From contig CM000208.1 of NCBI GenBank assembly GCA_000002445.1, positions 2,592,001 through 2,656,000 on the forward strand: a DNA stretch of 64,000 nt, in the 5' to 3' direction. Positions 1 to 42,094 of this stretch are shown here, piece by piece. This DNA comes from Trypanosoma brucei. Its lineage: Eukaryota. How positions within the stretch are numbered: position 1 is the stretch's first letter; each line of letters begins with the position of its first letter. The notes under the pieces are model-generated. The model saw nothing but the letters and a program-made list of their open reading frames with translations, made no database searches and was not told where the DNA came from. The translations under genes and the position numbers were made by a program.

Positions 1-2170
1 ACTCCCCCATCTTCTTAGATATCACCTCGGATGGAGTTGGGGGCCCCCCCTCAGACATCGATGTCGTGTCACAGTCGCTGCCGTCGGCATACAAGGTCTC
101 CTTCCTGCCATTCACTTGATAATGGTTGCAGTAGGTCGACCACTGTGTGCCCTTCACGTAGAATGACACGAAAGCAACCGCGAAGAACTCCTGCCTGACG
201 GCGGAAGACTCCGTTGCAACCGAGCGTTGATCCCTCCCAACATCGGCGGCTATTATTAATATTCCGCCGGATGGGTCAGCCTTCGCTAGCTTCGGACAAA
301 CTTGGTTCACATCTAGGGTCCAATTGAGGCGACCGGTTTTTGCGCATATTTGTTGCGCAACGGCCATGACAATCGACAACTCACGACCTCCCGTTAGGTC
401 CTTAGCCACGACTTGGCTAAGGGCACCGCCGCCCGACCATGATGCCTTCCACTCTGCATACGGCTCCCTCTCGGGTCGCCGCAGGAACGTCACACCAAAA
501 ATGTTCTTCCCCAAGCGGCCCTTCGCCTCTTTCAAGCTTCGAACGGGGATGGAATCCCCGAAATTTAGTGGGGCGCTCATGCCATCAAGGTACTTCTTTA
601 TATTACCGACGACAACAGTTCCCTGCTTGTTGTTTGTTTCGTCATACAATACGACGTCGACTGTCTGTCGCGCACCGGGGTGCCTAAGGTCTTTGAGCTC
701 CTTCACGAAACCCTGTTGTGAGCTCTCGCTTTGAGGGTTCACTCGTCGAAAACCGTCACCCTTTGGTATCAATATTTCCGGGGACTTCAGCACCTGACCA
801 TCCACGGAAACGAAATCCTTTCCAAAGGATATTCCGTACGCCTCCAAGAACTTCACGACCCTCCCCCCTTCGTGTTGGATTAGACGTTCAATGACACGCC
901 TGAGGCGTTGAACACGATCATCAGGAAATATGGAGCACAGCTGCGGAAGTTGCCTTCGGTCTTGCTCATTCAAGGACATCTCGTGCAGCACCTGAGGTGG
1001 GACAAGCACCACCCGCCGCCCGTCGTTCGTCCGGCACTTAAAAAGTGCTTGCTGTGGCTCAATATGAATCCCGTACCGGTCGCGGAAATACTCCACATAT
1101 GTCTGTGACGGGTTTTGTTTGAGGCCCGCTGCATCGCAGGCCTTATTGTCCGTAATATCAAGGACGGTATACATAGTAGCACGGGATTTGTCCACCACAC
1201 TGTATACCTTTTTCTTAATGAAACGCTCGGCGAGCGCTCGTCGGATACTACCGCGTGCTCGCCTCCTTTCATCCTCCATCGCCGTCAAACAGTCCATGGC
1301 CGACGCCACGGGAAGGGAGACGTCCAGCTGCAGGACATCGTTTTCTTTGCCACGGATTACTGTCGAAAACGCCTTCACAGAAACTGCCTCAAATATAGAG
1401 ATGGTTCCTGTGGCATTTTTTTTTCCGTTTTTCAGGTCTACAAACTTTGTACCGACCTTTTCCTCATAACATTCCTGAACGGCACTACCGATCACGCAGT
1501 TCAACTCCATTGTCCTCTCTTTGGGGTTCAACGAACATGATGTCGCCTGCTTCAGCGTAAGCGTGTATGTGTATGTCACCGTTTTCCCCTTCCCTTTGCG
1601 CGCGTTCACGGTCAATTCGTAATTATATTCCTCCACGGGAAGTCTAGTGGGACATATTATCGATGACCCTGTGCAGACGCACATGTTGACGTCAAATGCG
1701 TCTTCGCTACCGCTTTCCTTTCTCATTTTCAACAACATATTCTTCGATGCGAGCACTTTAACCCTTTCCCTGAGGTCGGGTGCCCCATCTTTCATTTCAA
1801 TGGAAAGGGGGTAAATGAAGGCACATTTCCTCGGGTCGATGTACAGAGGGAGGAGGTTTGTCCATGCCTCCACTGGCCGGTCGTACATCCCGGCTTTCGC
1901 AAACGAAACCACCGCATCCCTCTCACGGGTCTGGCCAGTCCGATACGCCCCGTCACCAAAGCCTCCACCACGTCCACCACGGTATCCACCCTCGCCTCCA
2001 CCACGTCCACCACGGTATCCACCCTCGCCTCCACCACGTCCACCACGGTATCCACCCTCGCCTCCACCACGTCCACCACGGCGTCCACCCTCGCCTCCAC
2101 CACGTCCACCACGGCGTCCACCCTCGCCTCCACCACGTCCACCACGGTATCCACGTTCCCAGTCAGACAT
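1..2170 (-). CDS. AGO1: Argonaute (AGO1-like). This is the N-terminal ~723 codons. ATG at 2170..2168 and the frame stays open to the left window edge, so the C-terminus lies outside the window.
   Basis: Hand translation of the minus strand from 2170 gives MSDWERGYRGGRGGGEGGRRGGRGGG..., an RGG/RG-rich N-terminus. Further in there are PIWI-like motifs: AKTGRLNWTL, like the KLGG(I/V)N box, and GGILIIAADVGRD, like the GADV catalytic box. I met no stop codon down to position 1. It is absent from the ORF track because it has no in-window stop. Confidence 0.72.
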   Translation of the reverse strand, partial: MSDWERGYRGGRGGGEGGRRGGRGGGEGGRRGGRGGGEGGYRGGRGGGEGGYRGGRGGGEGGYRGGRGGGFGDGAYRTGQTRERDAVVSFAKAGMYDRPVEAWTNLLPLYIDPRKCAFIYPLSIEMKDGAPDLRERVKVLASKNMLLKMRKESGSEDAFDVNMCVCTGSSIICPTRLPVEEYNYELTVNARKGKGKTVTYTYTLTLKQATSCSLNPKERTMELNCVIGSAVQECYEEKVGTKFVDLKNGKKNATGTISIFEAVSVKAFSTVIRGKENDVLQLDVSLPVASAMDCLTAMEDERRRARGSIRRALAERFIKKKVYSVVDKSRATMYTVLDITDNKACDAAGLKQNPSQTYVEYFRDRYGIHIEPQQALFKCRTNDGRRVVLVPPQVLHEMSLNEQDRRQLPQLCSIFPDDRVQRLRRVIERLIQHEGGRVVKFLEAYGISFGKDFVSVDGQVLKSPEILIPKGDGFRRVNPQSESSQQGFVKELKDLRHPGARQTVDVVLYDETNNKQGTVVVGNIKKYLDGMSAPLNFGDSIPVRSLKEAKGRLGKNIFGVTFLRRPEREPYAEWKASWSGGGALSQVVAKDLTGGRELSIVMAVAQQICAKTGRLNWTLDVNQVCPKLAKADPSGGILIIAADVGRDQRSVATESSAVRQEFFAVAFVSFYVKGTQWSTYCNHYQVNGRKETLYADGSDCDTTSMSEGGPPTPSEVISKKMGE
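1957..2155 (-). repeat. Tandem 33-nt coding repeat, about six copies, encoding the RGG box of the Argonaute N-terminus (G G E G G Y/R R G G R G).
   Basis: Unit ccaccacgtccaccacgg(t/c)(a/g)tccaccctcgcct reiterated. The only variation is tat/gcg, which gives Y or R. Confidence 0.8.
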
Positions 2171-5100
2171 TTTATTTAAATCCTTTTTATTAAGTTGCTT
2201 GTTTGCTTTTTTAGTTGATGACTGAAAGAGAACAAATAGTTTTTATCCTTTTCGCGTTCAACCTGATTACCCGTTCTGTGTTCAAACAAAAGAAAAGATC
2301 AGGTTGAAAGTTTTTTCTGGTAACTTTTTCCCAACAAATAATGAATACTGCTTTTTCATGCCGTTTTTTCCATAATTGATATCACATGTGAGTAACTCTT
2401 AACTGTATATGTCACTCGAACGTCGGGGTTGCTTACCCTATGAATGTGCGCGCTCTGTCGCCGAGTGCCATCATTTTGCTGCTACGAGTAAGTTTCCAGT
2501 CAGACAACATTACGAAAGTACTGCTCCTTCTCTTTGACTCTAACGTTGAGGCTTCTTCACAGACCCTCGTCTAAAATATCGTACACCTGAAACTACCGCA
2601 TGGGTGACCATATATAATACGAGTGTACAGTTGGCGCAAGAAAGAAATTACCACATAAACGTATCTTATTTCGTAAGACGTCGTTCTTCATAGTAATTAC
2701 TTACATGTCAGCCTTGCCATGCGTCAAAAACTGTGCATCCAACTTCTGTCGTCAACTTACCTTGTAATAAGGGTACCAATACATTGTATCCTTGTACAAT
2801 AAGGCCACTAAGTGCAGACCCAAGACTCGAATATGAATAATAAGGGATGAACAGAGCCTACCTGAGTATACTGAGGAACAGTAGCCTTCTAGAAAATACC
2901 TAGGTTACCGTAAAGGTATCAGCACGGCACTTCTATATTGTTCAGTCCAAATATATACCCCTATGACGTTATCACATCAAAGACACGCCCGACGGGGCGC
3001 TACACAGGGTCATCGTACTCATCTTTGAAGAGTGCTAATAACGTAAGTGTAAGGCAATAAACACGCACTTCACAATTATTGCGTGTTTAAACCACCAGTA
3101 TTCCCCGGTGTTTTCCCCGCCCTTCGTTGCCAGTGAATTGAAAGCAATTGTACTGCGTGCTGTTCCTATATTAGTATGTCATTATTGGGATAAGATCTTC
3201 ATAACGAAATCCAAACAATAAGCATTAGTACTCCCAAAACAGCATGCCGAACAAATTGTTAAGGAACAGAAAAGGTCGCATAAATAGTTTTCGAAAAATA
3301 ACAACAGCAATGATATGAAGCGACGTTATCAGTTACGGTGTAAATCTGTCAGTAACAGCTCAAGTGACCCCCGATTACTTGTGCGACGTATCCAACGCCA
3401 ATACTACGGTAACGTAATAGCTAAAATTATTGTGTTCACAACTTTTTCCACCTTTAGATGTTGTACTTGAATGCTTTCAACAATACCGAATAAAAGTATT
3501 TTGAACAACAGAAAAACAGTATAGATAACCATGTCATCGGAAGAGAAGCAGCGATAATCAGTAACAAAATGGACTTGCGACTCCTAACAGAACACTGCGG
3601 CTGGTTAACGGATCCAGTAGTTAAATCAATGCGGGGTACAACAAAGATTTCTTCTAACCACTAACACGATTGTAATGAAAAATAAACAAAAATGTTTCCA
3701 ACGAAAGATGTGAAAAGGAAAAATTCTCAATACCTAATAGGACCATTGAAACACAAGCTCACCATCAAATTCCACGGACTCATAATTCTTAGCATCATTA
3801 GAAGTGATCGATTACACCGTGGACAGCCTGGCAAACATGAAGGGAAAACTGTCCTCCATTCCTTTGTTCTGCCAACCCCCACCTGCCCACAAATACGAAT
3901 ACAACAAAAACCATTAACCGCACACCTCACCGGCGCAACCCGTATGATTCTCGTTGTGAAGAAAACCATCTTCCGCCAAAACAAAGTAACCGATCCCCCG
4001 TGACGGCCGCAAATTACGGGACCGTTTTATCAACTAATCAACCTACGCTTTCAAACAAAACACTCGTAAACAGCAATCACCAAAGCAGGCACTAATATAT
4101 ATATATATATATAGACAGCATGACAGGAGGTTATTAAAATGGCATCACAGTCTCACGAAGCCCTTTTAAGGGAGTGGACAAAAATATACGCATTGTGAGC
4201 CCCCTTTGCCACTAGTAATCCCACACTGCTAAAAAAGTGGAAAACAGTTCGTCACGAGTTGGAGGGAAAGGGGAATTGTCCTTCCCACATGCGTAGCCTA
4301 TACCGGCGACAAAACAATGGGGAGGAAGCAATGTCAAGTTTGTTTAAAACATCCACGGGGGACGTTGTAGCACCCACCCTAAAGGGAATACTGGTAACTA
4401 TGATTTAAAAAAACTCAAGAAGCACCAAGCAGTCACTGGTCACATGTAAATAGTAAGTTCCTAACCTTTTACACCGTATGTCCTCAGCAACCCAATGTCC
4501 CTTTAACAACAGTAAGGTAGAGAAAATCAATAACCAGACAGCTATTTATCATTTTACTTTTGAAAAAATGTGGAGATATGATAATAAGTTCACCAAATGA
4601 TTTAACTATAATTGATATTCCAGATTATTTTTAAATTTGACTCCCAAAGACTCGACTACATGGAGACACATATGTGCAAACGGGCAAATTCCGGGAGATG
4701 CAAACTTCTGTATAAATTTTTGTGATGATTGCTGTAACAATGCTGATGTTCGATGCTTGTGCTATCTCCCTTCGTTCATTTCCAGAGCACAGATCGCAGA
4801 CGGAATGTTCCCTTTATAAACGATACGTTGGCACTACAAGGTACCACAATGGAACATCAACAGGATACTGGTAAAAAACGCAAACGAAAAACGAAAAGTC
4901 ACGGTGGTACGCCCTCCCGTACAAGGCAAACTGGTAGGGGCCTTGAGCAGCCGTTTATACCGTGTATTTGAACCCACAAGCGTACATTGCTAAAATATTA
5001 ACAAGATTAAGCGTCAATGCGGTGAAATCCAGAACCCCTCACAAAGTTGAACCCAGCACTGTCGTAAAGTCCATGCCCTTCAATAAGCATTCATATATTT

Positions 5101-8100
5101 CATGGGCCACAGGGGAGTTAGGACAACAGCAGTCGGCACACAGCAATCAAAGCACGGGCTGTGACAGTGAAGAGAGTGATATACCTGGTGGATCGCATAC
5201 CATCCATGCAAAACGTGGCCTAGGCACAGGAATACTAGACAAAATAAAGCAAAGTTATAAAACTTGCCGGAAGTAGCACAGTGATAATGACAGTACACTC
5301 TCGGGGAAAATATTCACACCAGACAATTTGAAAGCGAACTCCAAGCAACAATGTTCTCATTACATAGATATCAGGCTGCGGGGGTGACATACCGGCAACG
5401 CAATTTTAAAAAAATAGAACAGATGAAAAATATTTAACAAACGACAAAAAACATACAGAAAACAAGTTTCCTATTTTGAGAATTAATATATTTCCCGTTC
5501 AAAACACGCAAAGCCAATTCCGAAAATGGAGCGGCAAAAAAAAAAAATGGAAAATACCTCTCAGGTATCCGGAGCCAAACCACGGCATGTACTCAGTATG
5601 TAAGATGCGTAAATAGCTTTACACGATCGAAATTTGGCAATGCTGTTGTTTTGACTCTATGTAGAAGCGGTCATGTCACAGCAACGGTCAAAAATACTCC
5701 GCGAAACCGATGACCACCAGAACCTCTAAGTGGATTCTGGAAAACAAAAACAAAATCGCCGATTTAAAATAAAAGATGCCCTTTTCGAAATTTTGTTCTA
5801 AAGGCTGCCTGTATCGAGTGAACGGATTTTGTGGCGAGGCTCTTCCCCTTTAGCAGTTCCTTCATAAGCACTCGCGTAGCAAATATCTTAACAGTAGAAT
5901 AATAATGCGTTACCTTCAGAAAGCACAGAAATACTTCATTACCGGGCTCAGAAGGAGATTGCAATTCCACTGAAACCCTTTAGCGGATCCGTAACAAAGA
6001 ATTCGGCGTCTTCCCCTACAACCCCAAAAACGATAACGCAGCACGCCACTATAGTTGCACACCCCCAAAAGGAAGGAAATGACTCTTTCTCCCAAATGAA
6101 TAGGGGAACATGGCTTTACCGGTAATATGCTTCCGAAAATACGGCAAACCAGCATAGACATTTGCTGACACAACACCTCACACAAGGGTAGTCATATGCT
6201 GCGCACCAAAGTGTGCCCCTATGCCGCGACGTTTTAGAATCTTAATTCACTCCGTGCGCACTTCGGTAGCTCAATATTCCAGTGTTTACTCTAAAACAGA
6301 GCTAGCTTCTACAGCAAAGCCAGTCTCCCGTCAGACAGCAAGAAGCCAGAGCAATGCGTTGACGAGAAAACGATGCAAATTTCCTTACACCGACCGATAG
6401 TTTTTTTCGGTAGGATAAAAAAAACTGGTAATATTAAATGGTTCCAGCTTATATTAATGCAGCCCTTCCAAGGCCTTCTCCAACTAAAATATATACAGCC
6501 AATTCTCAAAAAATAGGAGAGGAAACGCAGTGACTCCGTTACTTAACTGCGTATCGAGACGGCTGCGTTGATGGTATCGACAAATGGGTTAACGAAAACC
6601 CCACCACGAGCAACGATCAGCACCGTTGTCACAAACGAAGAATAGCAAAACACATTCATATGAAGAAACCCACGTATCCCACCCGGAACATTTGTCGAGG
6701 GGCAGAGCAACGATAAAACCAACTGTTAGTGACGCCTTGTGTAAAGTGGTTTCGTCATTGTGTTGAAAACAATAAACAGTTGGAAGAAACCAGTATATGA
6801 GAGCGGTAACGCACTCACGACGTATCAGCTAAATAGGGAAATGACGATAAACGCAAGGTGATGGCGTTCTCTGCCGCCAACTAACCACAAACCGTTACGC
6901 TTAAGGGGGTGGGCGCACACATACACACACCTCAGCCAGTGAGGTAAACGGGAAATCACTACGTGACACAACGCCAATGAGAGAAAGGGGAATAAGCCCT
7001 GAGGTACAGCTCGCCACTCGCGGTGCACTCGAGGGCGCTGACTTAACACCACACAATCTTTGAAACCGCCTCCTCCTAGACTACAGGAAAGATACCGCGC
7101 ATACCGGTGGTACCAGCGCATAAATGTCCCCATATCACCAGCCACATAGTGACACGACTTTAAGGTTTGCTGAAAAATGCACCTAGCCAGCCTGACTGGG
7201 TGCTGTAATGAAAGTAACTAGGTAGCAATCTTTGCTGGAAATGAAATAGCACGCTCCTAGCAGACAGATGGAGAAAGCAAACAACATTATCCACAACATC
7301 GCAACCTTTCAACTTCCGCTCCGGCTCAGAAAAATGGTACCCTACATGCTTCGACATCAAAGGGCGAAACGACGTACGCCACGCGGCGCAGTCGGCAAGA
7401 GAATCTTTGGCGCTACCCCGCAGCCCCTCGCCACTCTGGAACCTTCGCAGCGCCGTGCTAAGTGGAAGTGCACTGGCAGGCCCCTTTCCCCCCTCTCGGG
7501 GATCAAGCACCAACAAGTGGAAGGAGGTCGGCAGCCCGCACTCCGCCCCCCACCCCTCTCCCTCGTGCAGGCACTTGGAACGCTTACTGAACTATGCCGT
7601 TGCCCTCCTGTTAAGAGTGGGGTGGTCTTTCAACCAATTCAACGTTCACCACCTTCCCACACCCCAGAGGGTATTAGGTGCGAAGATCAGCCGATACCAG
7701 CCGCGCCGCCAAGTGGCACACGTGTCAGCTATGTTTTCCGGACTGATTTCGTTCCTTTTGCGTTCGTTTTTGGTGTTTGACTCTTCGACTTGTAGAAAGG
7801 CCTCTTACGTAGCAGGATCCCTCCGCACACCCGGTGGTCGCGGAACACAGGCACAACGTCTCTGCCGCAGATCCCAAAGGCGATAATTTTCTGATTTATC
7901 ACTTTGTCAACGCGCCCTGTTTGTCTGCAAATGGACACGCACTCGTACCGACACTTTGAGCATCCCCCTAGTTCTCAGTACTATTTCCTCCGAGAAAGGA
8001 TAACTATGAATGCTTCTGCCGCGGTTAGTTTGTGGCTGGTCTCCACGTTGCTGGCCTTTGGCAAGGAGTGTTAGCCCCCTCTTGACCCAGCCACGAACCC

Positions 8101-9281
8101 ACAATGCACACCCTGCGCTAGGCTTGGTTATGCACCTACGCTTGCGTCGAAAGGACCCTTGTGTGCCACTGTGCGGGAGCTGTATGTTTCGTTGTTTGTG
8201 GCTTATCTACTCCTATGTTGTCTTTTGGCTGGGTCAATCCGCATTTGGATTGCATTGCTTTACCGTTAGTGACGGGGTCTTTCTTTGGCCGCATTTTCAT
8301 CCAAGAAAATCCGAATTTGACTGCATTTTCCTCCGCGAGACCCACTGAGCCATTTCTTTCAGTCAGAAAGAGTTTTTGACTACGGCGCTTCGTCAGCACG
8401 CGAAAGTTGACGCCACACCAGCCCTTTCCGCCCGTGGAACAAACAATGTGCGGACCCCACATCCCAGGGATGTTCCACCCGTTGTTCTTCGAATAATTGA
8501 GTGCCTCTGGACTCCGATTGTTCTGGCGCTACGGAGGGATCGGTCACCAAGTTGGCGCATGTCATTACTAAGTGGCGTATGGGATGGTGTTGCCTCGGCG
8601 TTCCCTCGTCGGCTCCACCGGCTGCTGAGTGGCAAGGCTGAACTACGGCCCGCCTGCTAACTTTGCGGGCCGATCTTATCAAGTATGCCCATTTCGAAGC
8701 GTTTCTCTTGCCGCCTTCGGGAATCGAGCAGAGTCATATGAAGGCGTCCGCACCTGCGCTGCGGGGTGGTTCCGTTCAGCATTTGTTTGTGGGGACACTT
8801 ATCCTCTTTTCCATTTCGGCCACCTCTTCCCCCGTAGAGAGGGACTGCTGGCGACGTCCTGCCCGACGTCCTGCCCGACGTCCTGCACCCCATCGTTTCA
8901 CTTCTAATAATAGTTACAAAAGTGTGTGTCTGTACGGCAGTGCATATTTCTCCAGTCCCCAATCGCTTCGGTTGCTTTTACTCTTCTGAAGCACGGTTCA
9001 GAGGCGGTTGCTCAGTGCACTTCCATGGAAATAGCGCGCACAGACAGGATATCAGTTGTTTGTCTGAGCTGACGCGGGCATGAAACAGTATCATGCGGTG
9101 CCTTTTGACGGTAGTGACCAAATGTGTCAAGGCCAGCCTCGGGGAATCGTTTTGCTGTTCCTGTTGTGGCTCCTACTTTCCGTGGGGAGGGTAAGCGGAA
9201 GCGAACGTGTCAGTTCAAGGAATTGGAGAAGGTGCACTGTTACGCGGACAAATTCACGTCCGGGAATACTCCAACTAACAA

Positions 9282-9381
<100 letters not shown>

Positions 9382-11415
9382 CTAACCCTTTTTCCCCCTG
9401 CCATGTGCCACACTGACAAAAGGGAGGGAGGGGAACTGTTAAACGGCAACCTTGACTAGGTTTAAGCCCCGAATTTCGCGTCGCCTATTCGCTACGCGCG
9501 ACTACTGTGTGTGTTAGAATTATCGTATTCTTTGTTCATTAATTACTTTTTTTTTTCTGCCTGTGTGTAGAGGATTTTTCGTGCGTTATGAGGGACGGTT
9601 CAGTGAAATGCACTTTCGATTGTTCTGTCGTCGCCGACATTTTTGTCTTCATCGGTGAGGTGTTTTTACCTAATTGGTTGCCCTACTGGTTCCTATATAA
9701 TGCGATGCCGCCCATGAAATATTGTGCTCTTTTCATATTTTTTTAACGTTAATCTTTTGCGACCTTTGCGAAGAACAAGAGCAACTTCTAATGGTAAACA
9801 GAACGATTCCACAACAAAGAAAAGGAAATACAAATAGGCGTAAAAGTTTGATTTCTGTAAGAGAACCAAAAAAAAACACAGAAAGAAAAGGGTGTAAAAA
9901 CAACTGATGTAAGAAAGAGAGAGAAATCTGCAGCAAGTACTGAGGGGGGTAATGGGGGAAAAAACGGAGACGACGCGCCGGCATTTCGAACCTCCTTTGA
10001 GTTTGCGGTTGCTTACGTGTGTGTGTGTGTGTCCCGTTTGCCTACACTCCCCGCCCCCGGGTGCGTAAATAAGGCGACCCCCCCCCCGTCCCTACATCAG
10101 CGAACTGCGCAGGAAGAACCCATGTATATACTTCTCCTCCTTACTGGTTGTGGATGAAAGGATCGTCACCTCTCAGGTTTGCATTGCGCAAGATCGTACC
10201 AGCTTGACGCCTTTCCGAGTGTGCATTGCATGTGCCAAATTACCCTTACGGTGCGGACCGTCGCGTTTGGGGCGAGATTCCTGTAGGCGTCTTGTGAAAA
10301 AGCTGGCCCCGTCCAAGTGTTCGACGGCGCGTCCCGTAATACGACAAATGTGAACAGAAGGGAAGGCTACCGGTAGTGGCCGGGTTCGTGAACCATTAGG
10401 AGTCGTTCCTGAAAATGGCGCGCCAGCGCAGCAACCCATTCACTAGAGGTTTGGATGAATGAAGAACTCTACCTGTACAGGGGTTGTGGATTTAGTGTGT
10501 GACAACATAACTCTCCAACGGCAGTTGACACATAAAACTCAGTTCCTCGTAAATGGCAGCTGCGCAAGGTGCTCCCCTTAATTCGCCGCTTGTGTGATGC
10601 GCTTTGCGGCATCAAACCAATAATGGGGGGAAATGTATTTTCCGTCCTGTATATGGACCCGTTTTTAAGTAAGGATGAACTTTTTAAGGTGCGAAACACC
10701 GGCGTAAATTTCCTCTCTATGACTCCAACATCCTCCAAGCTTCCTCGGATCACTTGGTGTGGGAGCATGGCCCCTAACCTCTTTGCAAAGCTCGGCCAAA
10801 ATGTATGGCCTTGCGTTGCTTCATCTCCGGATGATTCGTGTAAAAAGAAATCTGCGTGTCTTCTATAGGGTTGAAATCAGTTAATCTCCTTGATTCGTGT
10901 CCAGGCGTACGTGTGTGTGTGTGGATTAAAAGCGGCTGTTCATGCGTATGCTTTTTCTTTTTCAAATTAAGGAAGAAAGGGGAAGACATTTTTTAAAACC
11001 ACGCGGAGAAGCGGTGAAATACTAGAAAAAGGCTCCTCCGTTCCACAAAAGTTTGTTGCATATTTTAATGCAATCAGAAAACTGGTGTATCAGTGGTGTG
11101 GAAATCAACCATCAGCATTCCAAACCAAAGATCCGCATCCTTGCAAGTTGTGGTGCCGATTTTGACGCAGCATTCCATCGGACTGCCTTTTTTCTTTTCC
11201 TAACGCACCACTTACCAATTTCCAAAGGTAAAAAAACCACAAAAAATCAAATGGCTGCTAAAAGGGCTTTAACTCCGACTTGTTTGCTTTATCGTGGCAA
11301 AACACGAACAAGCAACACGGTGTCAGTCATCGGAAAGGTGTTGCCAGCGACGGCGCCACTCCGACAGAAACGAAGCAGTAGCGGCTCGTTAGGCAGAGAC
11401 GCTCTGGCGCTCGGT

Positions 11416-11488
11416 TCCTCCCTGGCGCAGTCGGCAGCGCGTTAGGCTGTTAACCTACAGGTCGTTGGTTCGAATCCAACGGGAGGAG
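11416..11488 (+). tRNA. tRNA-Asn (anticodon GTT)
   Basis: Cloverleaf folded by hand: acceptor tcctccc/gggagga, D arm gcgc-agtcggca-gcgc, anticodon arm ttagg-cTGTTaa-cctac, T arm gttgg-ttcgaat-ccaac. Followed by tcttttt. Confidence 0.85.
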
Positions 11489-11565
11489 TCTTTTTGCTGC
11501 CCACCTCCGAAAATTCTGGAGGTCACTTTCGCTATAAAGGAAGAACTGAAGCTGTTGCAAAAACA

Positions 11566-11637
11566 GTGGACGAGTAGGGGTTTGAACCCTAGGCCTCCTG
11601 TATGCAAAACAGGCGCTCTACCACTGAGCTACACGCC
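11566..11637 (-). tRNA. tRNA-Ala (anticodon TGC)
   Basis: Minus-strand sequence gggcgtgtagctcagtggtagagcgcctgttttgcatacaggaggcctagggttcaaacccctactcgtcca. It has the G3:U70 alanine identity pair, anticodon loop ttTGCat and T loop ttcaaac. A T-run follows on the minus strand. Confidence 0.85.
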
Positions 11638-11740
11638 CTTCAACACGGCTAAATCCGTAATATCACATGAGGTTGTTTAGCAACCGTTGTGTACCATCAC
11701 GTAAAGTGGTGTGCTGTGATTGGCGAGAGGGCGTGGCGGT

Positions 11741-11813
11741 GCTCCAGTGGCCTAATGGATATGGCTTTGGACTTCTAATCCAAAGGTTGCGGGTTCGAGT
11801 CCCGTCTGGAGTA
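11741..11813 (+). tRNA. tRNA-Arg (anticodon TCT)
   Basis: gctccag acceptor paired with ctggagt, D loop aatggata, anticodon arm ttgga-ctTCTaa-tccaa, T arm gcggg-ttcgagt-cccgt. Followed by cgttttc. Confidence 0.85.
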
Positions 11814-11862
11814 CGTTTTCGTGTCCAAAATTATTTCATATTTGTTCGTTTCTAGTTGTTTG

Positions 11863-11934
11863 CCGGAGAGCAGCCTTCCTAGCTCAGTGGTAGAGCGCAC
11901 GGCTTTTAACCGTGTGGTCGTGGGTTCGATCCCC
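11863..11934 (+). tRNA. tRNA-Lys (anticodon TTT)
   Basis: gccttcc/ggaaggc acceptor, gctc-agtggta-gagc D arm, cacgg-ctTTTaa-ccgtg anticodon arm, gtggg-ttcgatc-cccac T arm. Followed by cttttc. Confidence 0.88.
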
Positions 11935-12029
11935 ACGGAAGGCGCTTTTCTACACTGCCGCTTAAGCTAATTTCTTTGCTGGGTACGACATGTAAGCGTT
12001 AGAGGCTTGCTTGGAGGAGGGTTGGCGGT

Positions 12030-12102
12030 GCCCCCGTAGCCCAATGGATAAGGCGTTCGCTTCCTAAGCGAAAGATTGCGGGTTCGAGTCCCGCCGGAGG
12101 TA
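12030..12102 (+). tRNA. tRNA-Arg (anticodon CCT)
   Basis: Acceptor gcccccg/cggaggt with one mismatch, D loop aatggata, perfect 5-bp anticodon stem ttcgc/gcgaa with loop ttCCTaa, T arm gcggg-ttcgagt-cccgc. Followed by gttttcc. Confidence 0.75.
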
Positions 12103-14332
12103 GTTTTCCGGTGCAAAAACTTGCGGATATATGAGATGGTCGCGCGAACGTGGCAGAAGCCGCAGCGGCGTTTGGATTTGGCGGGTCCTTTTTGCGGTGA
12201 ATGCTTGCGGGTTCATAAAACATCCGCGTTGAACCCCGTTTACGCGTGTCGAGGCCGGGGCATACAAATATGACGCCACTTCTTTGGCGCGGCTCCTCGA
12301 GGCTTGGTTGGTTACGCAAGCTCCCAAGCCCGCGGCGATTCGTTGGAAATTTGAGGAGAGGCCCCGATGTGTTCGGCGCTGGCGTTGAGGCCATTGCGAC
12401 GGAAGCTCTACCGGATTTTTGTGTTAAAGGCGCCACAAGTCCGCAAAACCCACTTCACCCTCTGTCGATGCGTTGTTGCGCCAACCAGGGTGGCACAGGG
12501 TGGAGTGGGGGGGGGGGGGGAGAAAAAGATAACCTGTTTTTCGGCGTGTGGCCACACAGTCATGGAGTTTCTTGTACTCAAGCCACGCTTTGCCTTATGA
12601 ATTCTTTCTTTAGGCCCTTGGTTTGTACGATGTCCACTGGCAGGGACAGGGGTTGAAGAAGTCACAACCATAGGAGATGACGACGGTTATTATCATTATT
12701 ATTATTATTTTTTTTTTTTGCGGGGGGCTTTGAAGCGCAGAGACACACACCAATGAGCACGTGTATGCGGTTTCCCCCAAAACTTTCCCCATCCGAGTGT
12801 GTTGCTCCGACGGATTGCCTTACATTACTGAAATTCACGACCGTAAGGGTGAGTCCCAGCCGGCTTCAGCGGCCGCACTGGGGGAGGGGGGAGAGATTAA
12901 GTTGGTCGGGTTTTCTCTTTCCACGCCATCGGCAAACAGCAAAATGGGCAACAGGGGTTAGGATACTCTGCAGAGACGGATCGTACGGGAAAGAGGGGGG
13001 TGACACATTTGCCTTCTAATTCAACACTTGACAATGGCTACGGGAAATTGGGACCATTTTGATCCTCTTGTTCCGCCGAACAACAAAACCAGAAATAACT
13101 ACCCGTTGCCACCTTCAGCGGCTACATATATATATATATTTATGTAAATTTATATGAAGCACACACCGCAGCAACCGGGGCTGTGCCGCTCGGTTGCCCA
13201 TCCACTTTTTTGTGCGTGGGCAACTGGGAAATGGAAGGGAAGGGAGGGGAAGGGTGATGTGTGGAGGAGAGCTCAGGGGATGCCATTCCTTCATCCATCA
13301 AGGGGACTGATGTAATATTTGAAAATGTTACGCGAACCTTCCCACGGCTGCCTCCTAACCTTCCGCCACGTTCTCATCTGCCATAGGCAAATGAAGGTTG
13401 CGGAGCCAAACGAGCGGGGCAGTGCCCTTTACGTAGTCTTTTATCTTGAGCAGACGGAACCGGAGGACGGGAAGGGAACCGTTACACGCGGGACGCGTAG
13501 TTGTGTGCCACAGGCCGTCATTGCCGTTGATATCATCTGCTCCATCTCGGCCATTCCATGTCTAGCCATCAGAGACGACCCCGACCCTCTCTCCACGCGC
13601 TTCTCACTTGCGAGACAAATGACACCGTTTCAAGCTTCTTAGCTATTCACATGGTTCCGATACAGGGGTGCCGAGCCGACTCTCCTCCTCTTTCCGCCGT
13701 GGCCCAAGTTTCGTATCACTTCCATCGAAGTACATGGGTTCGCACTTCGGCCTCGCGTGGATAAATGCCTCTCTCGTCTTAAAAAAAAAAAGAATTGCTT
13801 TGTTTCCTCTCCCCGCGGAAGCGAATATGGGGTGTCCCTTGCTTCGTCATGCAACCTCCTTGACAGGCGGCGGTTCTTTCAAGCTTTACTCTTCGCAAGG
13901 GGGAAAACGTACATGATGATATGATCATTCAAGGACGCAAGAAAAAAGGGGACACCCACACATATACGTATATATACATATTTTTGTACATGTGTCAGCG
14001 CATCTGCATATCATGTCTTGTGGTAAAAACGATGTGCTACAGCTGTTGGGCCTTCCCTGCGAGGAGGAAGTGTACGCTCGTAATTTCAACCCCTCATTTG
14101 TCTACTGAGCACGCACTCATGAGAGGAATGGAAGGAAAGGGGGGGGGGGGGAAAGTAAAACTATGAGGCGCACGGCACATACACGCAGGAGTAGAAATAA
14201 CGGCCACACGTTTATGCTTGACGTCGTCACTGCGACAATACCGTCAGCTTTGGGCCAGCAGAAAAACAACACTCCTTCACCACGCGTGTCCACTTTAACC
14301 GCGGCAAAAAAAGTTCTGCACCTGTTGATGGG

Positions 14333-18998: not shown

Positions 18999-21113
18999 TC
19001 AGTCCACTTCCTCCATACCCGACGCACCAGTACTGGAGTTGGCGGCAGCAGCGGCAACGGGTGCCTGCGCTTCCTCCTCTTCCGCATCATCGTCGAGTGA
19101 GAGACCCAATTTGATCATGCGGTGGATACGGTCAGCGTATGCCGTGGGGTCATCAAGTGTAAACCCGGATGTCAGCAGCGAGGTGTCGAAGAGGAGGAAT
19201 ATCAGGTCCTTGGCGGCCTTGTCGTTTTCGTCGGCCTCCACGCGTCGTTTCAGCTCCTTGACGATGGCGTGCGTGGTGTTGATCTCCATGGTCTTCTTCG
19301 ACATCATGTACGCAGACATGCTGGAGTCTCGCAGAGCCTGGTTGCGCATGATCTGTTCCATGTGTGCACTCCACCCGAACTCTGATGTCACGAGAATGCA
19401 TGGTGATGTTGCCAACCGGTCGGACACCACCACCTTCTCCACTTTGTCACCAAGTACCTCTTTCATTGCCTTGCACAGCCGCTCGTATGATGCCTTCTCT
19501 TCTTCCCGCTGTTTCTTCTCTTCCTCCGTCTCCTCGAAGTGTACACCCTCCTTTGTGAGGCACGCGAACTTTTTGTCCTCAAAGTCCTTCACTTGCTGCA
19601 TCACATACTCGTCGATGGGGTCAGTCATGAAAAGTACCTCCATGCCGCGGCGCTTCGCCTGCTCGATGAACGGAGACGTTTCGAGCTTCTTCTTGCTGTC
19701 ACCCGTCACATAGTAGATGCACTTCTGACCATCCTTCATGCGTGTCACGTAGTCCTTCAATGTCGTCATCTCCTCACCGGATTCCGAACTGTGGAAGCGC
19801 AGCAGTTCCATCAGCTTCTTGCGGTTTGTGCTGTCTTCGTGGATGCCCAGCTTCACGTTCTTGCTGAACTGTTCGTAGAACTTCTTGTAGTCCTCCTTGT
19901 TCTCTGCGAGCTCCTCGAAGAGCTCCAGGGCCTTCTTCACAATATTCTTACGGATCACCTTGAGGATTTTGTTCTGCTGCAGGTTCTCACGGGAGATATT
20001 TAGTGGCAGGTCCTCGCTGTCCACCACACCGCGCAGGAAGCCGAGCCACTCGGGGCACAGGTCCTCACAGTTGTCCATGATGAACACGCGGCGGACGTAT
20101 AGCTTGATGTTGTTGCGCTTCTTGTTTGGTTCGAACATGTCAAAGGGTGCGCGCTTCGGGAGAAATAAGATAGCCCGGAACTCCAGCTGGCCCTCCACGG
20201 AGAAGTGCTTCGTAGACAGCTGCTCTTCCCAGTCGTTCGAGATGGCCTTGTAGAAGGAGGCGTACTCCTCCTTTGTTACATCTTTCGGGTCGCGCGTCCA
20301 CAGTGGCTTGTGCTTGTTCTGCACCACAAACTCCTGCTTCACTTCCTTCACCTTTTTGGTTTTCTTTTTCTTGGCATCGGCATCATCGCCGTCCTTCACC
20401 TCTTCCACCTTTGGCTCCTCACCTTCCTCAGCCTTTTTGGCGGCCTCTTCGTCTTCGTCTTCATCTGTCACCTCCTTCTCAGTGGTGTTCTCCACCATTA
20501 ACTCGATGTCGTAGCCGATAAATTCGGAGTGTTTTTTGATGAGGTCCTTCAGCCGCCGCTCCTCCAGGTATTCCTGCTGGTCTTCCTTCAAATGCAAGAC
20601 GATACGCGTACCGCGCTTCAGGTCACAGTCGGGCGTGGAGGTTACAGTGAAGGTACCACCTGCAGAGGATTCCCACGTGTAGGCATCGTCCTCGTTGTTC
20701 TTCGACACAACGGTTACGCGGTCTGCGACAAGGTAGGCAGAGTAAAATCCGACGCCGAACTGCCCGATCATGCTCATATCGCCACCGGCCTCCAATGCCT
20801 CCATGAATGACTTGGTACCGGAGCGAGCAATCGTACCAAGGTTGTTCACCAGGTCGGCTTTCGTCATACCGATGCCACTGTCCTCCACCGTCAGTGTCTT
20901 ATTTACTCGGTCGGGGATTACGCGAATGCGCAAATGGGGTTCATCTCCGAGCACGGACTGGTTCGTCAGACTCTGGTACCGGATTTTGTCGCACGCATCT
21001 GACGAATTACTAATTAGCTCGCGAAGAAAAATTTCCTTGTTTGAATAGAAGGTATTAATAATAAGGGACATTAGCTGATTGATTTCAGCCTGGAATGCGA
21101 ATGTCTCCGTCAT
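18999..21113 (-). CDS. HSP83: Heat shock protein 83 (HSP90 family), full length, 704 aa.
   Basis: N-terminal ATPase signature ...[15 protein letters not shown]..., GTIARSGT, the charged linker, and C-terminal MEEVD (the TPR-binding tail). The length matches trypanosomatid HSP83. Confidence 0.97.
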
Positions 21114-39856: not shown

Positions 39857-42094
39857 TTAATCAAATTCTTCAACATCTAAACCTACTAATGCTTCACCAC
39901 CCTCAGGTGCCACTGCCTCAGGTTGTGCTTCTGCAGGAACTTGCTGTGGCTCTTCAAGCTCTTCAACTGCTTCCACTGCTATGTCACCCTCAGGTGCCGC
40001 TGCCTCAGGTTGTGCTTCTGCAGGAACTTGCTGTGGCTCTTCAAGCTCTTCAACTGCTTCCACTGCTATGTCACCCTCAGGTGCCGCTGCCTCAGGTTGT
40101 GCTTCTGCAGGAACTTGCTGTGGTTCTTCAAGCTCTTCAACTGCTTCCACTGCTATGTCACCCTCAGGTGCCGCTGCCTCAGGTTGTGCTTCTGCAGGAA
40201 CTTGCTGTGGCTCTTCAAGCTCTTCAACTGCTTCCACTGCTATGTCACCCTCAGGTGCCGCTGCCTCAGGTTGTGCTTCTGCAGGAACTTGCTGTGGTTC
40301 TTCAAGCTCTTCAAGTGCTTCCACTGCTATGTCACCCTCAGGTGCCGCTGCCTCAGGTTGTGCTTCTGCAGGAACTTGCTGTGGCTCTTCAAGCTCTTCA
40401 AGTGCTTCCACTGCTATGTCACCCTCAGGTGCCGCTGCCTCAGGTTGTGCTTCTGCAGGAACTTGCTGTGGCTCTTCAAGCTCTTCAACTGCTTCCACTG
40501 CTATGTCACCCTCAGGTGCCGCTGCCTCAGGTTGTGCTTCTGCAGGAACTTGCTGTGGCTCTTCAAGCTCTTCAACTGCTTCCACTGCTATGTCACCCTC
40601 AGGTGCCGCTGCCCCAGGTTGTGCTTCTGCAGGAACTTGCTGTGGCTCTTCAAGCTCTTCAACTGCTTCCACTGCTATGTCACCCTCAGGTGCCGCTGCC
40701 TCAGGTTGTGCTTCTGCAGGAACTTGCTGTGGCTCTTCAAGCTCTTCAACTGCTTCCACTGCTATGTCACCCTCAGGTGCCGCTGCCTCAGGTTGTGCTT
40801 CTGCAGGAACTTGCTGTGGCTCTTCAAGCTCTTCAACTGCTTCCACTGCTATGTCACCCTCAGGTGCCGCTGCCTCAGGTTGTGCTTCTGCAGGAACTTG
40901 CTGTGGTTCTTCAAGCTCTTCAAGTGCTTCCACTGCTATGTCACCCTCAGGTGCCGCTGCCCCAGGTTGTGCTTCTGCAGGAACTTGCTGTGGCTCTTCA
41001 AGCTCTTCAACTGCTTCCACTGCTATGTCACCCTCAGGTGCCGCTGCCTCAGGTTGTGCTTCTGCAGGAACTTGCTGTGGCTCTTCAAGCTCTTCAACTG
41101 CTTCCACTGCTATGTCACCCTCAGGTGCCGCTGCCTCAGGTTGTGCTTCTGCAGGAACTTGCTGTGGCTCTTCAAGCTCTTCAACTGCTTCCACTGCTAT
41201 GTCACCCTCAGGTGCCGCTGCCTCAGGTTGTGCTTCTGCAGGAACTTGCTGTGGTTCTTCAAGCTCTTCAAGTGCTTCCACTGCTATGTCACCCTCAGGT
41301 GCCGCTGCCTCAGGTTGTGCTTCTGCAGGAACTTGCTGTGGCTCTTCAAGCTCTTCAAGTCCTTCCACTGCTATGTCACCCTCAGGTTGTGCCTCAGGTT
41401 GTGCTTCTGCAGGAACTTGCTGTGGCTCTTCAAGCTCTTCAACTGCTTCCACTGCTATGTCACCCTCAGGTGCCGCTGCCTCAGGTTGTGCTTCTGCAGG
41501 AACTTGCTGTGGCTCTTCAAGCTCTTCAACTGCTTCCACTGCTATGTCACCCTCAGGTGCCGCTGCCTCAGGTTGTGCTTCTGCAGGAACTTGCTGTGGT
41601 TCTTCAAGCTCTTCAAGTGCTTCCACTGCTATGTCACCCTCAGGTGCCGCTGCCTCAGGTTGTGCCTCAGGTTGTGCTTCTGCAGGAACTTGCTGTGGCT
41701 CTTCAAGCTCTTCAAGTGCTTCCACTGCTATGTCACCCTCAGGTGCCGCTGCCTCAGGTTGTGCTTCTGCAGGAACTTGCTGTGGCTCTTCAAGCTCTTC
41801 AAGTGCTTCCACTGCTATGTCACCCTCAGGTGCCGCTGCCTCAGGTTGTGCCTCAGGTTGTGCTTCTGCAGGAACTTGCTGTGGTTCTTCAAGCTCTTCA
41901 AGTGCTTCCACTGCTATGTCACCCTCAGGTTGTGCCTCAGGTTGTGCTTCTGCAGGAACTTGCTGTGGCTCTTCAAGCTCTTCAAGTGCTTCCACTGCTA
42001 TGTCACCCTCAGGTGCCGCTGCCTCAGGTTGTGCCTCAGGTTGTGCTTCTGCAGGAACTTGCTGTGGCTCTTCAAGCTCTTCAACTGCTTCCAC
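39857..42094 (-). CDS. C-terminal portion of a giant acidic tandem-repeat protein. The frame is separated from the upstream portion by frameshifting lesions, and the ORF caller started it at an in-repeat GTG.
   Basis: 745 codons made up almost entirely of EGDIAVEA(L/V)EELEEPQQVPAEAQPEA(QPEA)AAP units. It terminates ...GGEALVGLDVEEFD* at 39857. Confidence 0.6.
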   Translation of the reverse strand: MEAVEELEEPQQVPAEAQPEAQPEAAAPEGDIAVEALEELEEPQQVPAEAQPEAQPEGDIAVEALEELEEPQQVPAEAQPEAQPEAAAPEGDIAVEALEELEEPQQVPAEAQPEAAAPEGDIAVEALEELEEPQQVPAEAQPEAQPEAAAPEGDIAVEALEELEEPQQVPAEAQPEAAAPEGDIAVEAVEELEEPQQVPAEAQPEAAAPEGDIAVEAVEELEEPQQVPAEAQPEAQPEGDIAVEGLEELEEPQQVPAEAQPEAAAPEGDIAVEALEELEEPQQVPAEAQPEAAAPEGDIAVEAVEELEEPQQVPAEAQPEAAAPEGDIAVEAVEELEEPQQVPAEAQPEAAAPEGDIAVEAVEELEEPQQVPAEAQPGAAAPEGDIAVEALEELEEPQQVPAEAQPEAAAPEGDIAVEAVEELEEPQQVPAEAQPEAAAPEGDIAVEAVEELEEPQQVPAEAQPEAAAPEGDIAVEAVEELEEPQQVPAEAQPGAAAPEGDIAVEAVEELEEPQQVPAEAQPEAAAPEGDIAVEAVEELEEPQQVPAEAQPEAAAPEGDIAVEALEELEEPQQVPAEAQPEAAAPEGDIAVEALEELEEPQQVPAEAQPEAAAPEGDIAVEAVEELEEPQQVPAEAQPEAAAPEGDIAVEAVEELEEPQQVPAEAQPEAAAPEGDIAVEAVEELEEPQQVPAEAQPEAAAPEGDIAVEAVEELEEPQQVPAEAQPEAVAPEGGEALVGLDVEEFD

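What the first reader, a model, noticed from the sequence alone, without database searches (positions are those of the whole stretch)
1..2170. Argonaute with an RGG-repeat N-terminus, encoded partly by a 33-nt DNA tandem repeat and not visible in the ORF track
The minus-strand frame starting at ATG 2170 stays open to position 1, and the track lists only ORFs with an in-window stop. It encodes MSDWERGYRGG(RGGGEGG(Y/R)RGG)n followed by a body with PIWI-like boxes (GRLNWTL; ILIIAADVGRD). An RGG box fused to a PAZ/PIWI protein is the hallmark of the African-trypanosome RNAi Argonaute, so this locus marks the window as coming from an RNAi-competent lineage. The catalytic-box residues differ from canonical AGO (AADV rather than GADV, and ADGSD where RDG is expected). 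The copy number and the Y/R alternation of the RGG repeat may be polymorphic.
Basis: partly seen in the sequence, partly recalled or inferred. Interest (0 to 1): 0.5.

Follow-up and report, generated by a model that had tools for sequence, protein, structure and literature searches.

The report
Trypanosoma brucei Argonaute gene TbAGO1
The left end of the window holds the first 723 codons of TbAGO1, the already well-studied RNA-interference Argonaute of the African trypanosome, so the finding is real but ordinary.

Summary
The minus-strand frame from ATG 2170 stays open to base 1 (723 codons). Its N-terminus is an RGG array encoded by a 33-nt tandem repeat (1961..2154, 5.9 copies).

The 723 residues are 100% identical to T. 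brucei brucei TREU927 'argonaute-like protein' XP_823303.1 (903 aa), which is TbAGO1. PAZ is found inside the window. Piwi passes Pfam's cut-off only on the full-length protein.

Four database alleles (881, 892, 903 and 914 aa) differ by whole 11-aa units, giving 8, 10, 12 or 14 RGG.

Two parts of the interpretation are wrong or overstated:
- 'ADGSD' is not the RDG box. It lies in a non-conserved loop. The true RDG equivalent is L-R746-G747-C, beyond the window edge.
- RGG N-termini are not unique to trypanosome Argonautes. Toxoplasma Tg-AGO has one as well.

A by-product is that three alignment methods place D643-E715-G747-R881 at the DEDH catalytic tetrad. That is 'DEGR', as in slicer-inactive human AGO4, and the third-position Asp is missing in all 25 full-length or near-full-length sequences of the kinetoplastid AGO1-type group that were aligned. 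I could not establish whether this is already published.

Verdict: a known gene, correctly recognised. Low interest.

The parts
1..2170 (-). 5' part of the TbAGO1 coding sequence (codons 1-723 of 903). The gene continues beyond base 1 of the window.
   Evidence: Open frame. 100% identity and 100% coverage to XP_823303.1, 903 aa.
1961..2155 (-). RGG domain (aa 6-70, 12 RGG tripeptides), encoded by a 33-nt tandem repeat. Units begin at 2149, 2116, 2083, 2050, 2017 and 1984 (the last one partial). Unit order is Y,R,R,Y,Y,Y.
   Evidence: Tandem Repeats Finder, unit table, RGG count. Literature: the RGG domain is needed for polyribosome association and efficient RNAi (PMC3002974, PMC2696322, PMC2877743).
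920..1297 (-). PAZ domain (aa 292-417)
   Evidence: Pfam PF02170, E=2e-12, 47.6 bits against a cut-off of 28.8.
773..853 (-). Weak Argonaute linker-2 similarity (aa 440-466), below Pfam's cut-off
   Evidence: PF16488, E=7e-4, 20.2 bits against a cut-off of 33.3.
338..460 (-). MID-type 5'-phosphate pocket residues Y571, K575, Q586, K611
   Evidence: Invariant in 16 kinetoplastid-type AGO1 sequences. Aligned to the conserved Y..K....Q....K columns of canonical AGO/PIWI by hhalign.
2..490 (-). N-terminal half of the Piwi domain (aa 561-723 of the 561-879 Pfam match)
   Evidence: PF02171, E=3.4e-10, 40.1 bits on the full-length protein. No hit on the truncated fragment.
242..244 (-). Codon GAT for D643, which aligns to the first catalytic Asp (the GADV box; here AADV)
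   Evidence: Sequence. hhalign aligns 'vLIIg~dVgs' to 'tMi~G~DV~Hp'. MAFFT of 139 sequences.
26..28 (-). Codon GAG for E715, which aligns to the 'glutamate finger' (hAGO2 E637)
   Evidence: HMMER profile against hAGO2 chains. hhalign. E715 lies exactly 32 residues before G747, matching E637 to D669 in hAGO2.
74..91 (-). 'YADGSD' (aa 694-699): the start of a lineage-variable insert before the glutamate finger, not the RDG box
   Evidence: Not conserved among six AGO1 orthologues. pLDDT below 50 at 694-709 and no secondary structure at 696-712. hhalign leaves this stretch unaligned to canonical AGOs.
2222..2277 (-). Two polypyrimidine-tract + AG sites (AG at 2277-2276 and at 2223-2222). These are candidate spliced-leader acceptor sites for the AGO1 mRNA. 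Inferred only.
   Evidence: Read from the sequence. No RNA data were available.

Best explanation
The region is the 5' four-fifths of TbAGO1 (the T. brucei brucei TREU927 allele), the single PAZ+Piwi Argonaute that carries out RNA interference in African trypanosomes.

Shown here:
- The frame is intact and has the Argonaute domain order: RGG array, N/L1, PAZ, L2, MID, Piwi.
- The small-RNA 5'-phosphate pocket residues are conserved.
- The RGG array is encoded by near-perfect 33-nt repeats whose number differs between strains.

Taken from the literature:
- siRNAs made by the Dicers TbDCL1 and TbDCL2 are loaded into TbAGO1.
- The exonuclease TbRIF4 removes the passenger strand, rather than AGO slicing doing so.
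- The RGG domain tethers TbAGO1 to polyribosomes and scales RNAi efficiency with RGG number.
- Arg735 of the 892-aa allele is needed for target mRNA degradation but not for siRNA loading.

Inferred:
- Arg735 is R746 in the 903-aa allele of this window.
- Repeat-number changes arise by slippage or unequal exchange between the identical 33-nt units.
- These changes may modulate RNAi strength.
For: - 100% identity to XP_823303.1 over all 723 in-window residues, including repeat number. The other alleles differ by 1-4 substitutions and by unit number.
- PAZ is found in the window, and PAZ plus Piwi on the full-length protein.
- Foldseek of the predicted model hits Siwi, hAGO2 and hAGO1 over about 850 columns at E about 1e-30.
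- Y571, K575, Q586 and K611 are invariant and aligned to the canonical pocket columns.
- Literature on function: PMC3359990, PMC3447711, PMC3002974, PMC2696322.
- The published 'ten RGG motifs in 68 aa' (PMC3002974) matches the 892-aa allele P0009, which has 10 RGG.
Against: - Nothing contradicts the identification.
- The last 180 codons and the stop lie outside the window and could not be checked on this DNA. The exact-protein contig look-up found nothing.
- The canonical DEDH tetrad is not met; the aligned residues are DEGR. The commonly used label 'slicer' therefore rests on genetics from the literature, not on the sequence.
- The AF2 model is only moderate (mean pLDDT 58, six-sequence alignment).
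Confidence: 0.97

Rival explanations
1. It is the other trypanosomatid Argonaute-family gene (PIWI-tryp/TbPWI1, Tb927.10.2220), not the RNAi Argonaute.
For: Both genes are Piwi-domain proteins of T. brucei (PMC3528672).
Against: PIWI-tryp proteins lack a PAZ domain and retain DDH (PMC3528672). This protein has a PAZ domain and lacks the third Asp. It is 100% identical to the protein deposited as argonaute-like protein XP_823303.1, and its cluster includes AAR10810 'argonaute-like protein 1'.
Confidence: 0.01
2. The frame is a decaying pseudogene, as reported for ago1 in T. rangeli, and the open frame in the window is fortuitous.
For: AGO1 has been lost or pseudogenised repeatedly in trypanosomatids (PMC4169256). 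The canonical catalytic residues are missing.
Against: There are 723 uninterrupted codons. Four Trypanozoon alleles differ by only 1-4 substitutions plus in-frame unit changes. The G and R replacements are conserved across RNAi-competent genera, so they are ancient and compatible with function. Published knock-outs abolish RNAi (PMC3359990).
Confidence: 0.01
3. The apparent RGG copy-number differences between strains are assembly or cloning artefacts of a 198-nt perfect repeat, not real polymorphism.
For: Perfect 33-nt units are prone to collapse in short-read assemblies. The T. equiperdum allele (881 aa) comes from a 39.7-kb contig.
Against: Four independent records give four lengths in exact 11-aa steps, with flanks identical or nearly so. 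The cloned 892-aa allele has 10 RGG, as stated independently in the literature (PMC3002974). The array is short enough to be spanned by a single Sanger read.
Confidence: 0.15

Closest known systems
TbAGO1 of Trypanosoma brucei brucei TREU927 (XP_823303.1 / EAN78475.1 / UniProt Q389P5)
   Same: Identical over all 723 residues encoded in the window, including 12 RGG and the Y,R,R,Y,Y,Y unit order.
   Different: Nothing in the part that can be compared. The last 180 residues lie outside the window.
AGO1 alleles of other Trypanozoon: T. b. gambiense DAL972 (914 aa), T. brucei AAR10810 (892 aa), T. equiperdum (881 aa)
   Same: Rounded to 100% identity outside the array, differing by 1-4 substitutions.
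   Different: One more, one fewer or two fewer 11-aa units, giving 14, 10 or 8 RGG.
AGO1 of T. congolense, T. conorhini, Crithidia, Zelonia
   Same: Same architecture, with an R/G-rich N-terminus, the R-G replacement at the RDG box, the 'EY[AG]RK' box and the MHYL C-terminus.
   Different: 59% and 46% BLASTP identity to the 723-aa query for T. congolense and T. conorhini, and 27% for Zelonia. The RGG arrays use different repeat units (about 15 aa in T. congolense, 13 aa in T. conorhini), so they expanded independently. The Crithidia, Zelonia and related sequences also lack the first Asp (SAVVGS).
Human AGO4 (PDB 6oon)
   Same: The aligned tetrad residues are DEGR in both. hAGO4 has YRGGVSEGQ where TbAGO1 has LRGCASEGE, and DEGR is stated for Ago4 in PMC4174435. 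Both have an insertion next to the glutamate finger.
   Different: hAGO4 is slicer-inactive and acts through the miRNA/GW182 route. TbAGO1 mediates dsRNA-triggered mRNA destruction. Sequence identity is only about 14-15%, the value Foldseek gives for hAGO1 and hAGO2 chains; hAGO4 itself is not among the listed Foldseek hits.
Toxoplasma gondii Tg-AGO
   Same: N-terminal RGG repeat domain (aa 1-68) that is required for polysome association (PMC2877743).
   Different: Unrelated lineage. The paper's domain figure marks DDH residues in the PIWI domain. Its RGG domain is linked to PRMT1 and Tudor-SN binding, which has not been shown for TbAGO1.
Drosophila AGO2 N-terminal glutamine-rich repeats
   Same: A low-complexity, tandem-repeat-encoded N-terminal extension of an siRNA Argonaute with natural copy-number variation (PMC3002974).
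   Different: Gln-rich rather than Arg/Gly-rich. No phenotype was linked to the variation.

Membership tests
Eukaryotic Argonaute (AGO/PIWI superfamily) | PAZ domain | tested here: met
   PF02170, E=2e-12, aa 292-417, above the gathering score.
Eukaryotic Argonaute (AGO/PIWI superfamily) | Piwi (RNase H-like) domain | tested here: met
   PF02171, E=3.4e-10, aa 561-879 on the full-length identical protein. Not detected on the truncated in-window fragment. hhalign against canonical AGO/PIWI gives probability 100%, E=1e-65, 722 columns.
Eukaryotic Argonaute (AGO/PIWI superfamily) | MID pocket residues Y-K-Q-K that bind the guide 5' phosphate | tested here: met
   Y571, K575, Q586 and K611 are invariant in 16 sequences and aligned to the canonical columns.
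Eukaryotic Argonaute (AGO/PIWI superfamily) | Overall four-domain bilobed fold | tested here: met
   Foldseek of the AF2 model against PDB: Siwi, hAGO2, hAGO1, MIWI at E from 1e-30 to 1e-26, about 850 aligned columns, TM about 0.5. The model has moderate confidence (pLDDT 58).
Slicer-competent Argonautes (hAGO2 type) | Complete DEDH (or DEDD) catalytic tetrad | tested here: not met
   The aligned residues are D643, E715, G747 and R881. Position 3 is supported by HMMER against hAGO2 and hAGO4, MAFFT of 139 sequences and hhalign. Position 4 is supported by MAFFT and hhalign, while an ungapped HMMER extrapolation gives A877 instead; neither is His. Nearly all canonical sequences in the same alignment show D..RDG..AH.
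Slicer-competent Argonautes (hAGO2 type) | Guide-directed endonucleolytic cleavage of target RNA in vitro | not testable with these tools
   The literature read here calls TbAGO1 a slicer on genetic grounds: complementation by HsAGO2 but not HsAGO1, and loss of function in R735A (PMC3359990, PMC2696322). The primary papers were not held.
TbAGO1 orthologue group (trypanosomatid AGO1) | N-terminal RGG domain | tested here: met
   12 RGG in aa 6-70. R/G-rich N-termini are also present in the T. congolense and T. conorhini orthologues.
TbAGO1 orthologue group (trypanosomatid AGO1) | Functionally essential Arg735 of the Piwi domain (892-aa numbering) | tested here: met
   The full-length identical protein has R746, which equals R735 plus the 11 aa of one extra unit. 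It is nearly invariant in the clade. It lies outside the window.
PIWI-tryp (PAZ-less trypanosomatid Argonaute-like proteins) | Absence of PAZ with a retained DDH | tested here: not met
   PAZ is present and the third Asp is absent. Family description from PMC3528672.

The most novel reading that the evidence does not exclude
TbAGO1 and the whole kinetoplastid AGO1-type group found here carry a hAGO4-like pseudo-tetrad. It reads D-E-G-R in Trypanosoma and V-E-G-R in Crithidia/Zelonia-type sequences, and the third Asp is absent throughout. If so, the mRNA destruction step of trypanosome RNAi would not be catalysed by the canonical RNase H-type Argonaute active site. It would instead use a relocated or non-canonical catalytic arrangement, or a recruited nuclease, even though TbAGO1 is routinely called 'the slicer'. 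In addition, natural 8-14 RGG copy-number variation could tune RNAi strength between strains.
Probability: 0.2. Interest if true: 0.6.

Novelty: already known. Interest (0 to 1): 0.12.

Why it matters
The gene itself has been characterised since 2003-2004, so nothing new follows from finding it.

Two points could interest a specialist:
- Database alleles show an 8/10/12/14 RGG series, in a domain where engineered RGG number is reported to scale RNAi efficiency.
- The canonical slicer tetrad reads DEGR throughout the Trypanosoma AGO1 sequences. This sits oddly with the 'slicer' label and with TbRIF4, rather than slicing, removing the passenger strand.

Tried and rejected
- The exact-protein contig look-up for P0001, meant to recover the missing 3' end and compare DNA, found nothing on record.
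- Primary TbAGO1 papers were not held: Shi 2004 MCB, Shi 2009 JBC, Shi 2006 RNA, Durand-Dubief & Bastin 2003, and the Kolev 2011 review. Shi 2004 JBC was seen only as a citation and was not looked up. Their content is cited only through papers that quote them.
- Literature searches for 'TbAGO1 + DDH' or 'TbAGO1 + catalytic' found no statement about TbAGO1's tetrad residues. Whether DEGR is already published remains open.
- A single-sequence phmmer search against PDB reached only Siwi and did not cover the catalytic region. Profiles were needed.
- My first mapping of the fourth tetrad position to A877, an ungapped extrapolation, was replaced by R881. MAFFT and hhalign both introduce a 4-residue insertion ('KCAx') and align EY[AG]RK with QYAHK/YYAHL.
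- I first considered E691 ('GRKETLY') as the glutamate finger. I rejected it because it is not conserved and both HMMER and hhalign align E715.
- The + strand ORFs over the repeat (1815..2225 and 1858..2193, Pro- and His-rich) are frame shadows of the repeat, not genes.
- Rfam found nothing in 1..2600; its only matches in the window are five tRNAs elsewhere.

Full report
**Observation.** Reading 1..2600 on the minus strand shows an ATG at 2170 followed by an uninterrupted frame down to base 1, giving 723 codons and one spare base. The nearest in-frame upstream stop is TAA at 2245..2243, with no ATG in between, so 2170 is the first possible start. The mechanical ORF list does not contain this frame because it runs off the window. 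It lists only short shadow ORFs, including Pro-rich and His-rich + strand frames across the repeat.

Tandem Repeats Finder reports a 33-nt period with 5.9 copies, 97% matches and score 360 at 1961..2154. Cutting the coding strand into 33-nt units from codon 8 gives five full units and one partial unit. These are identical at every position except a TA/CG dinucleotide in the first codon, which gives Tyr or Arg.

**Identity.** Pfam finds a PAZ domain in the window-encoded fragment (aa 292-417, E=2e-12) and a sub-threshold linker-2 match, but no Piwi hit. A search of the large protein collection returns T. brucei brucei TREU927 'argonaute-like protein' (XP_823303.1, 903 aa, on a 4.05-Mb contig) at 100% identity over 100% of the query. 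The next hits are T. congolense (59%), T. conorhini (46%) and Crithidia/Zelonia 'Argonaute 1'.

The full-length protein passes Pfam's thresholds for both PAZ and Piwi (aa 561-879, E=3.4e-10). A profile of six orthologues hits PIWI- and AGO-clade crystal and cryo-EM structures. An AlphaFold2 model (mean pLDDT 58, so only moderate) matches Siwi, hAGO2, hAGO1 and MIWI over about 850 columns at E about 1e-30. A profile-profile comparison with 26 canonical AGO/PIWI sequences gives probability 100% and E=1e-65. The MID-pocket residues Y571, K575, Q586 and K611 are invariant in 16 relatives and align with the canonical columns. This is TbAGO1.

**What is known about how it works (literature).** TbAGO1 is the single RNAi Argonaute of T. 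brucei. It receives siRNAs from the cytoplasmic Dicer TbDCL1 and the nuclear Dicer TbDCL2. It controls retroposon (ingi, SLACS) and CIR147 repeat transcripts (PMC3447711; PMC3359990).

Conversion of duplex siRNA to single-stranded siRNA is uncoupled from AGO slicing and is done by the 3'-5' exonuclease TbRIF4 (PMC3359990). The N-terminal RGG domain is required for association with polyribosomes and for efficient RNAi. Engineered versions respond more strongly the more RGG copies they carry (PMC3002974 citing Shi et al. 2009; PMC2696322; PMC2877743). Arg735 in the Piwi domain is required for target degradation but not for siRNA loading (title and citations of Shi et al. 2004).

The primary papers were not available to me.

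**The polymorphism prediction.** The 90% cluster of this protein has four members of 881 aa (T. equiperdum), 892 aa (T. brucei AAR10810), 903 aa (TREU927) and 914 aa (T. b. gambiense DAL972). Aligned, they differ by whole 11-aa units inside the array plus 1-4 substitutions elsewhere. This gives 8, 10, 12 and 14 RGG tripeptides.

The 10-RGG count of the 892-aa allele agrees with the published 'ten arginine-glycine rich motifs in 68 amino acids' (PMC3002974). The units that vary in number are the Tyr-type units at the 3' side. The window matches the TREU927 allele exactly in both unit number and substitutions.

The T. congolense and T. conorhini orthologues have R/G-rich arrays built from different units (about 15 and 13 aa), so the arrays have turned over independently.

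**The catalytic boxes.** 'AADV' is indeed the GADV box. hhalign aligns vLIIg-dVgs with tMi-G-DV-Hp, so D643 (codon at 244..242) is the first catalytic Asp.

'ADGSD' is not the RDG box. It opens an insert (about aa 694-712) that differs even among Trypanosoma species. The insert has pLDDT below 50 and no secondary structure in the model, and hhalign leaves it unaligned.

The HMMER profile against hAGO2 chains aligns E715 (PSEV; codon 28..26) with E637, the glutamate finger. It aligns R746-G747 with R668-D669. The top hAGO2 chains shown are D669A mutants, and hAGO4 shows RGG at that box. The spacing is 32 residues in both proteins. R746 is Arg735 of the 892-aa allele (903 - 892 = 11).

For the fourth position, a MAFFT alignment of 139 sequences and hhalign both place a four-residue insertion and align EY[G/A]R881K with QYAHK/YYAHL. 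An ungapped HMMER extension would give A877 instead. Neither is His. In the same MAFFT alignment nearly all canonical sequences show D, RDG and AH, which serves as a positive control.

The tetrad therefore reads D-E-G-R, as in human AGO4 ('DEGR instead of DEDH', slicer-inactive; PMC4174435). Human AGO1's DEDR is also called pseudo-catalytic (PMC9262622). None of the 25 full-length or near-full-length sequences of the kinetoplastid AGO1-type group has Asp at position 3. The Crithidia/Zelonia-type sequences also lack the first Asp.

By contrast, the PAZ-less PIWI-tryp protein of T. brucei is reported to keep DDH (PMC3528672). I found no statement on TbAGO1's tetrad in the searchable library. I cannot say whether this is already described, and two of the four residues lie outside the window.

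**Surroundings.** All long ORFs in the window are on the minus strand. Upstream of AGO1, at higher coordinates, lie about 9.2 kb without any ORF of 180 aa or more. This stretch contains a (CA)48 run at 9283..9379. Next comes a cluster of five tRNA genes at 11415..12103, and then genes for a protein kinase, an ABC ATPase, HSP90, a CDC20-like WD40 protein, a MutS homologue and others.

From general knowledge of trypanosome transcription, tRNA genes often mark boundaries of Pol II polycistronic units. AGO1 may therefore be the first gene of a unit. I did not test this. Two polypyrimidine + AG sites at 2277-2276 and 2223-2222 are candidate spliced-leader acceptors (inference only).

**Verdict.** The feature is real and the gene is correctly recognised. 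One box is mis-assigned and one claim is overstated. The gene is already known in detail. Interest is low. The DEGR reading and the natural RGG series are the only points worth a specialist's second look.

Noticed in passing
window 11415..12103: Cluster of five tRNA genes on mixed strands: Asn-GTT (+), Ala-TGC (-), Arg-TCT (+), Lys-TTT (+), Arg-CCT (+). It lies between the protein-kinase gene and AGO1 and may mark a Pol II transcription-unit boundary.
   Followed up: partly
window 2171..11400: About 9.2 kb upstream of the AGO1 start with no ORF of 180 aa or more on either strand. GC ranges from 0.38 to 0.56, and there is a perfect (CA)48 run at 9283..9379, which reads (TG)n on the AGO1 coding strand. 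Its nature is unexplained: it could be a transcription start region or degenerate mobile-element remains.
   Followed up: partly
window 39857..47138: Very large acidic repeat gene on the minus strand, built from 87/99-nt units (about 41 copies, 39898..43619; peptide ...PEGDIAVEA(L/V)EELEEPQQVPAEAQPEA...) and 57-nt units (about 38 copies, 43613..45767). It has no Pfam hit. The repeats keep long ORFs open on both strands. The minus-strand frame is broken by two frame changes near 42095..42190, which could be an assembly error or a real disruption.
   Followed up: partly
window 1815..2225 and 1858..2193 (+ strand): Pro-rich (PPRPPRYPPSPP) and His-rich 'ORFs' opposite the RGG repeat. These are frame shadows of the 33-nt repeat, not genes.
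   Followed up: yes
window 242..244 and 26..28 (minus strand), plus residues 747 and 881 outside the window: The AGO1 catalytic tetrad aligns as D643-E715-G747-R881 ('DEGR', like slicer-dead human AGO4). Asp is absent at position 3 in the whole kinetoplastid AGO1-type group.
   Followed up: yes
proteins P0004, P0005, P0006, P0010, P0011 (Crithidia/Zelonia-type AGO1 and relatives): These orthologues also lack the first catalytic Asp (SAVVGS or GTAVNS instead of [GA]AD[VI]G), although at least some of their lineages are described as RNAi-competent.
   Followed up: partly
proteins P0002 (T. congolense) and P0003 (T. conorhini), N-termini: The R/G-rich N-terminal arrays are built from different repeat units (about 15 aa GRGDGGRGGYRGGG. 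and 13 aa GGGDVQGYRGRGG). This indicates independent expansion and turnover of the array in each species.
   Followed up: partly
window 18999..21113: Only one HSP90-family ORF (704 aa) is present between the ABC ATPase and the CDC20-like gene. From memory, T. brucei HSP83 is a multi-copy tandem array near AGO1, so the array may be collapsed in this sequence. Not verified.
   Followed up: no
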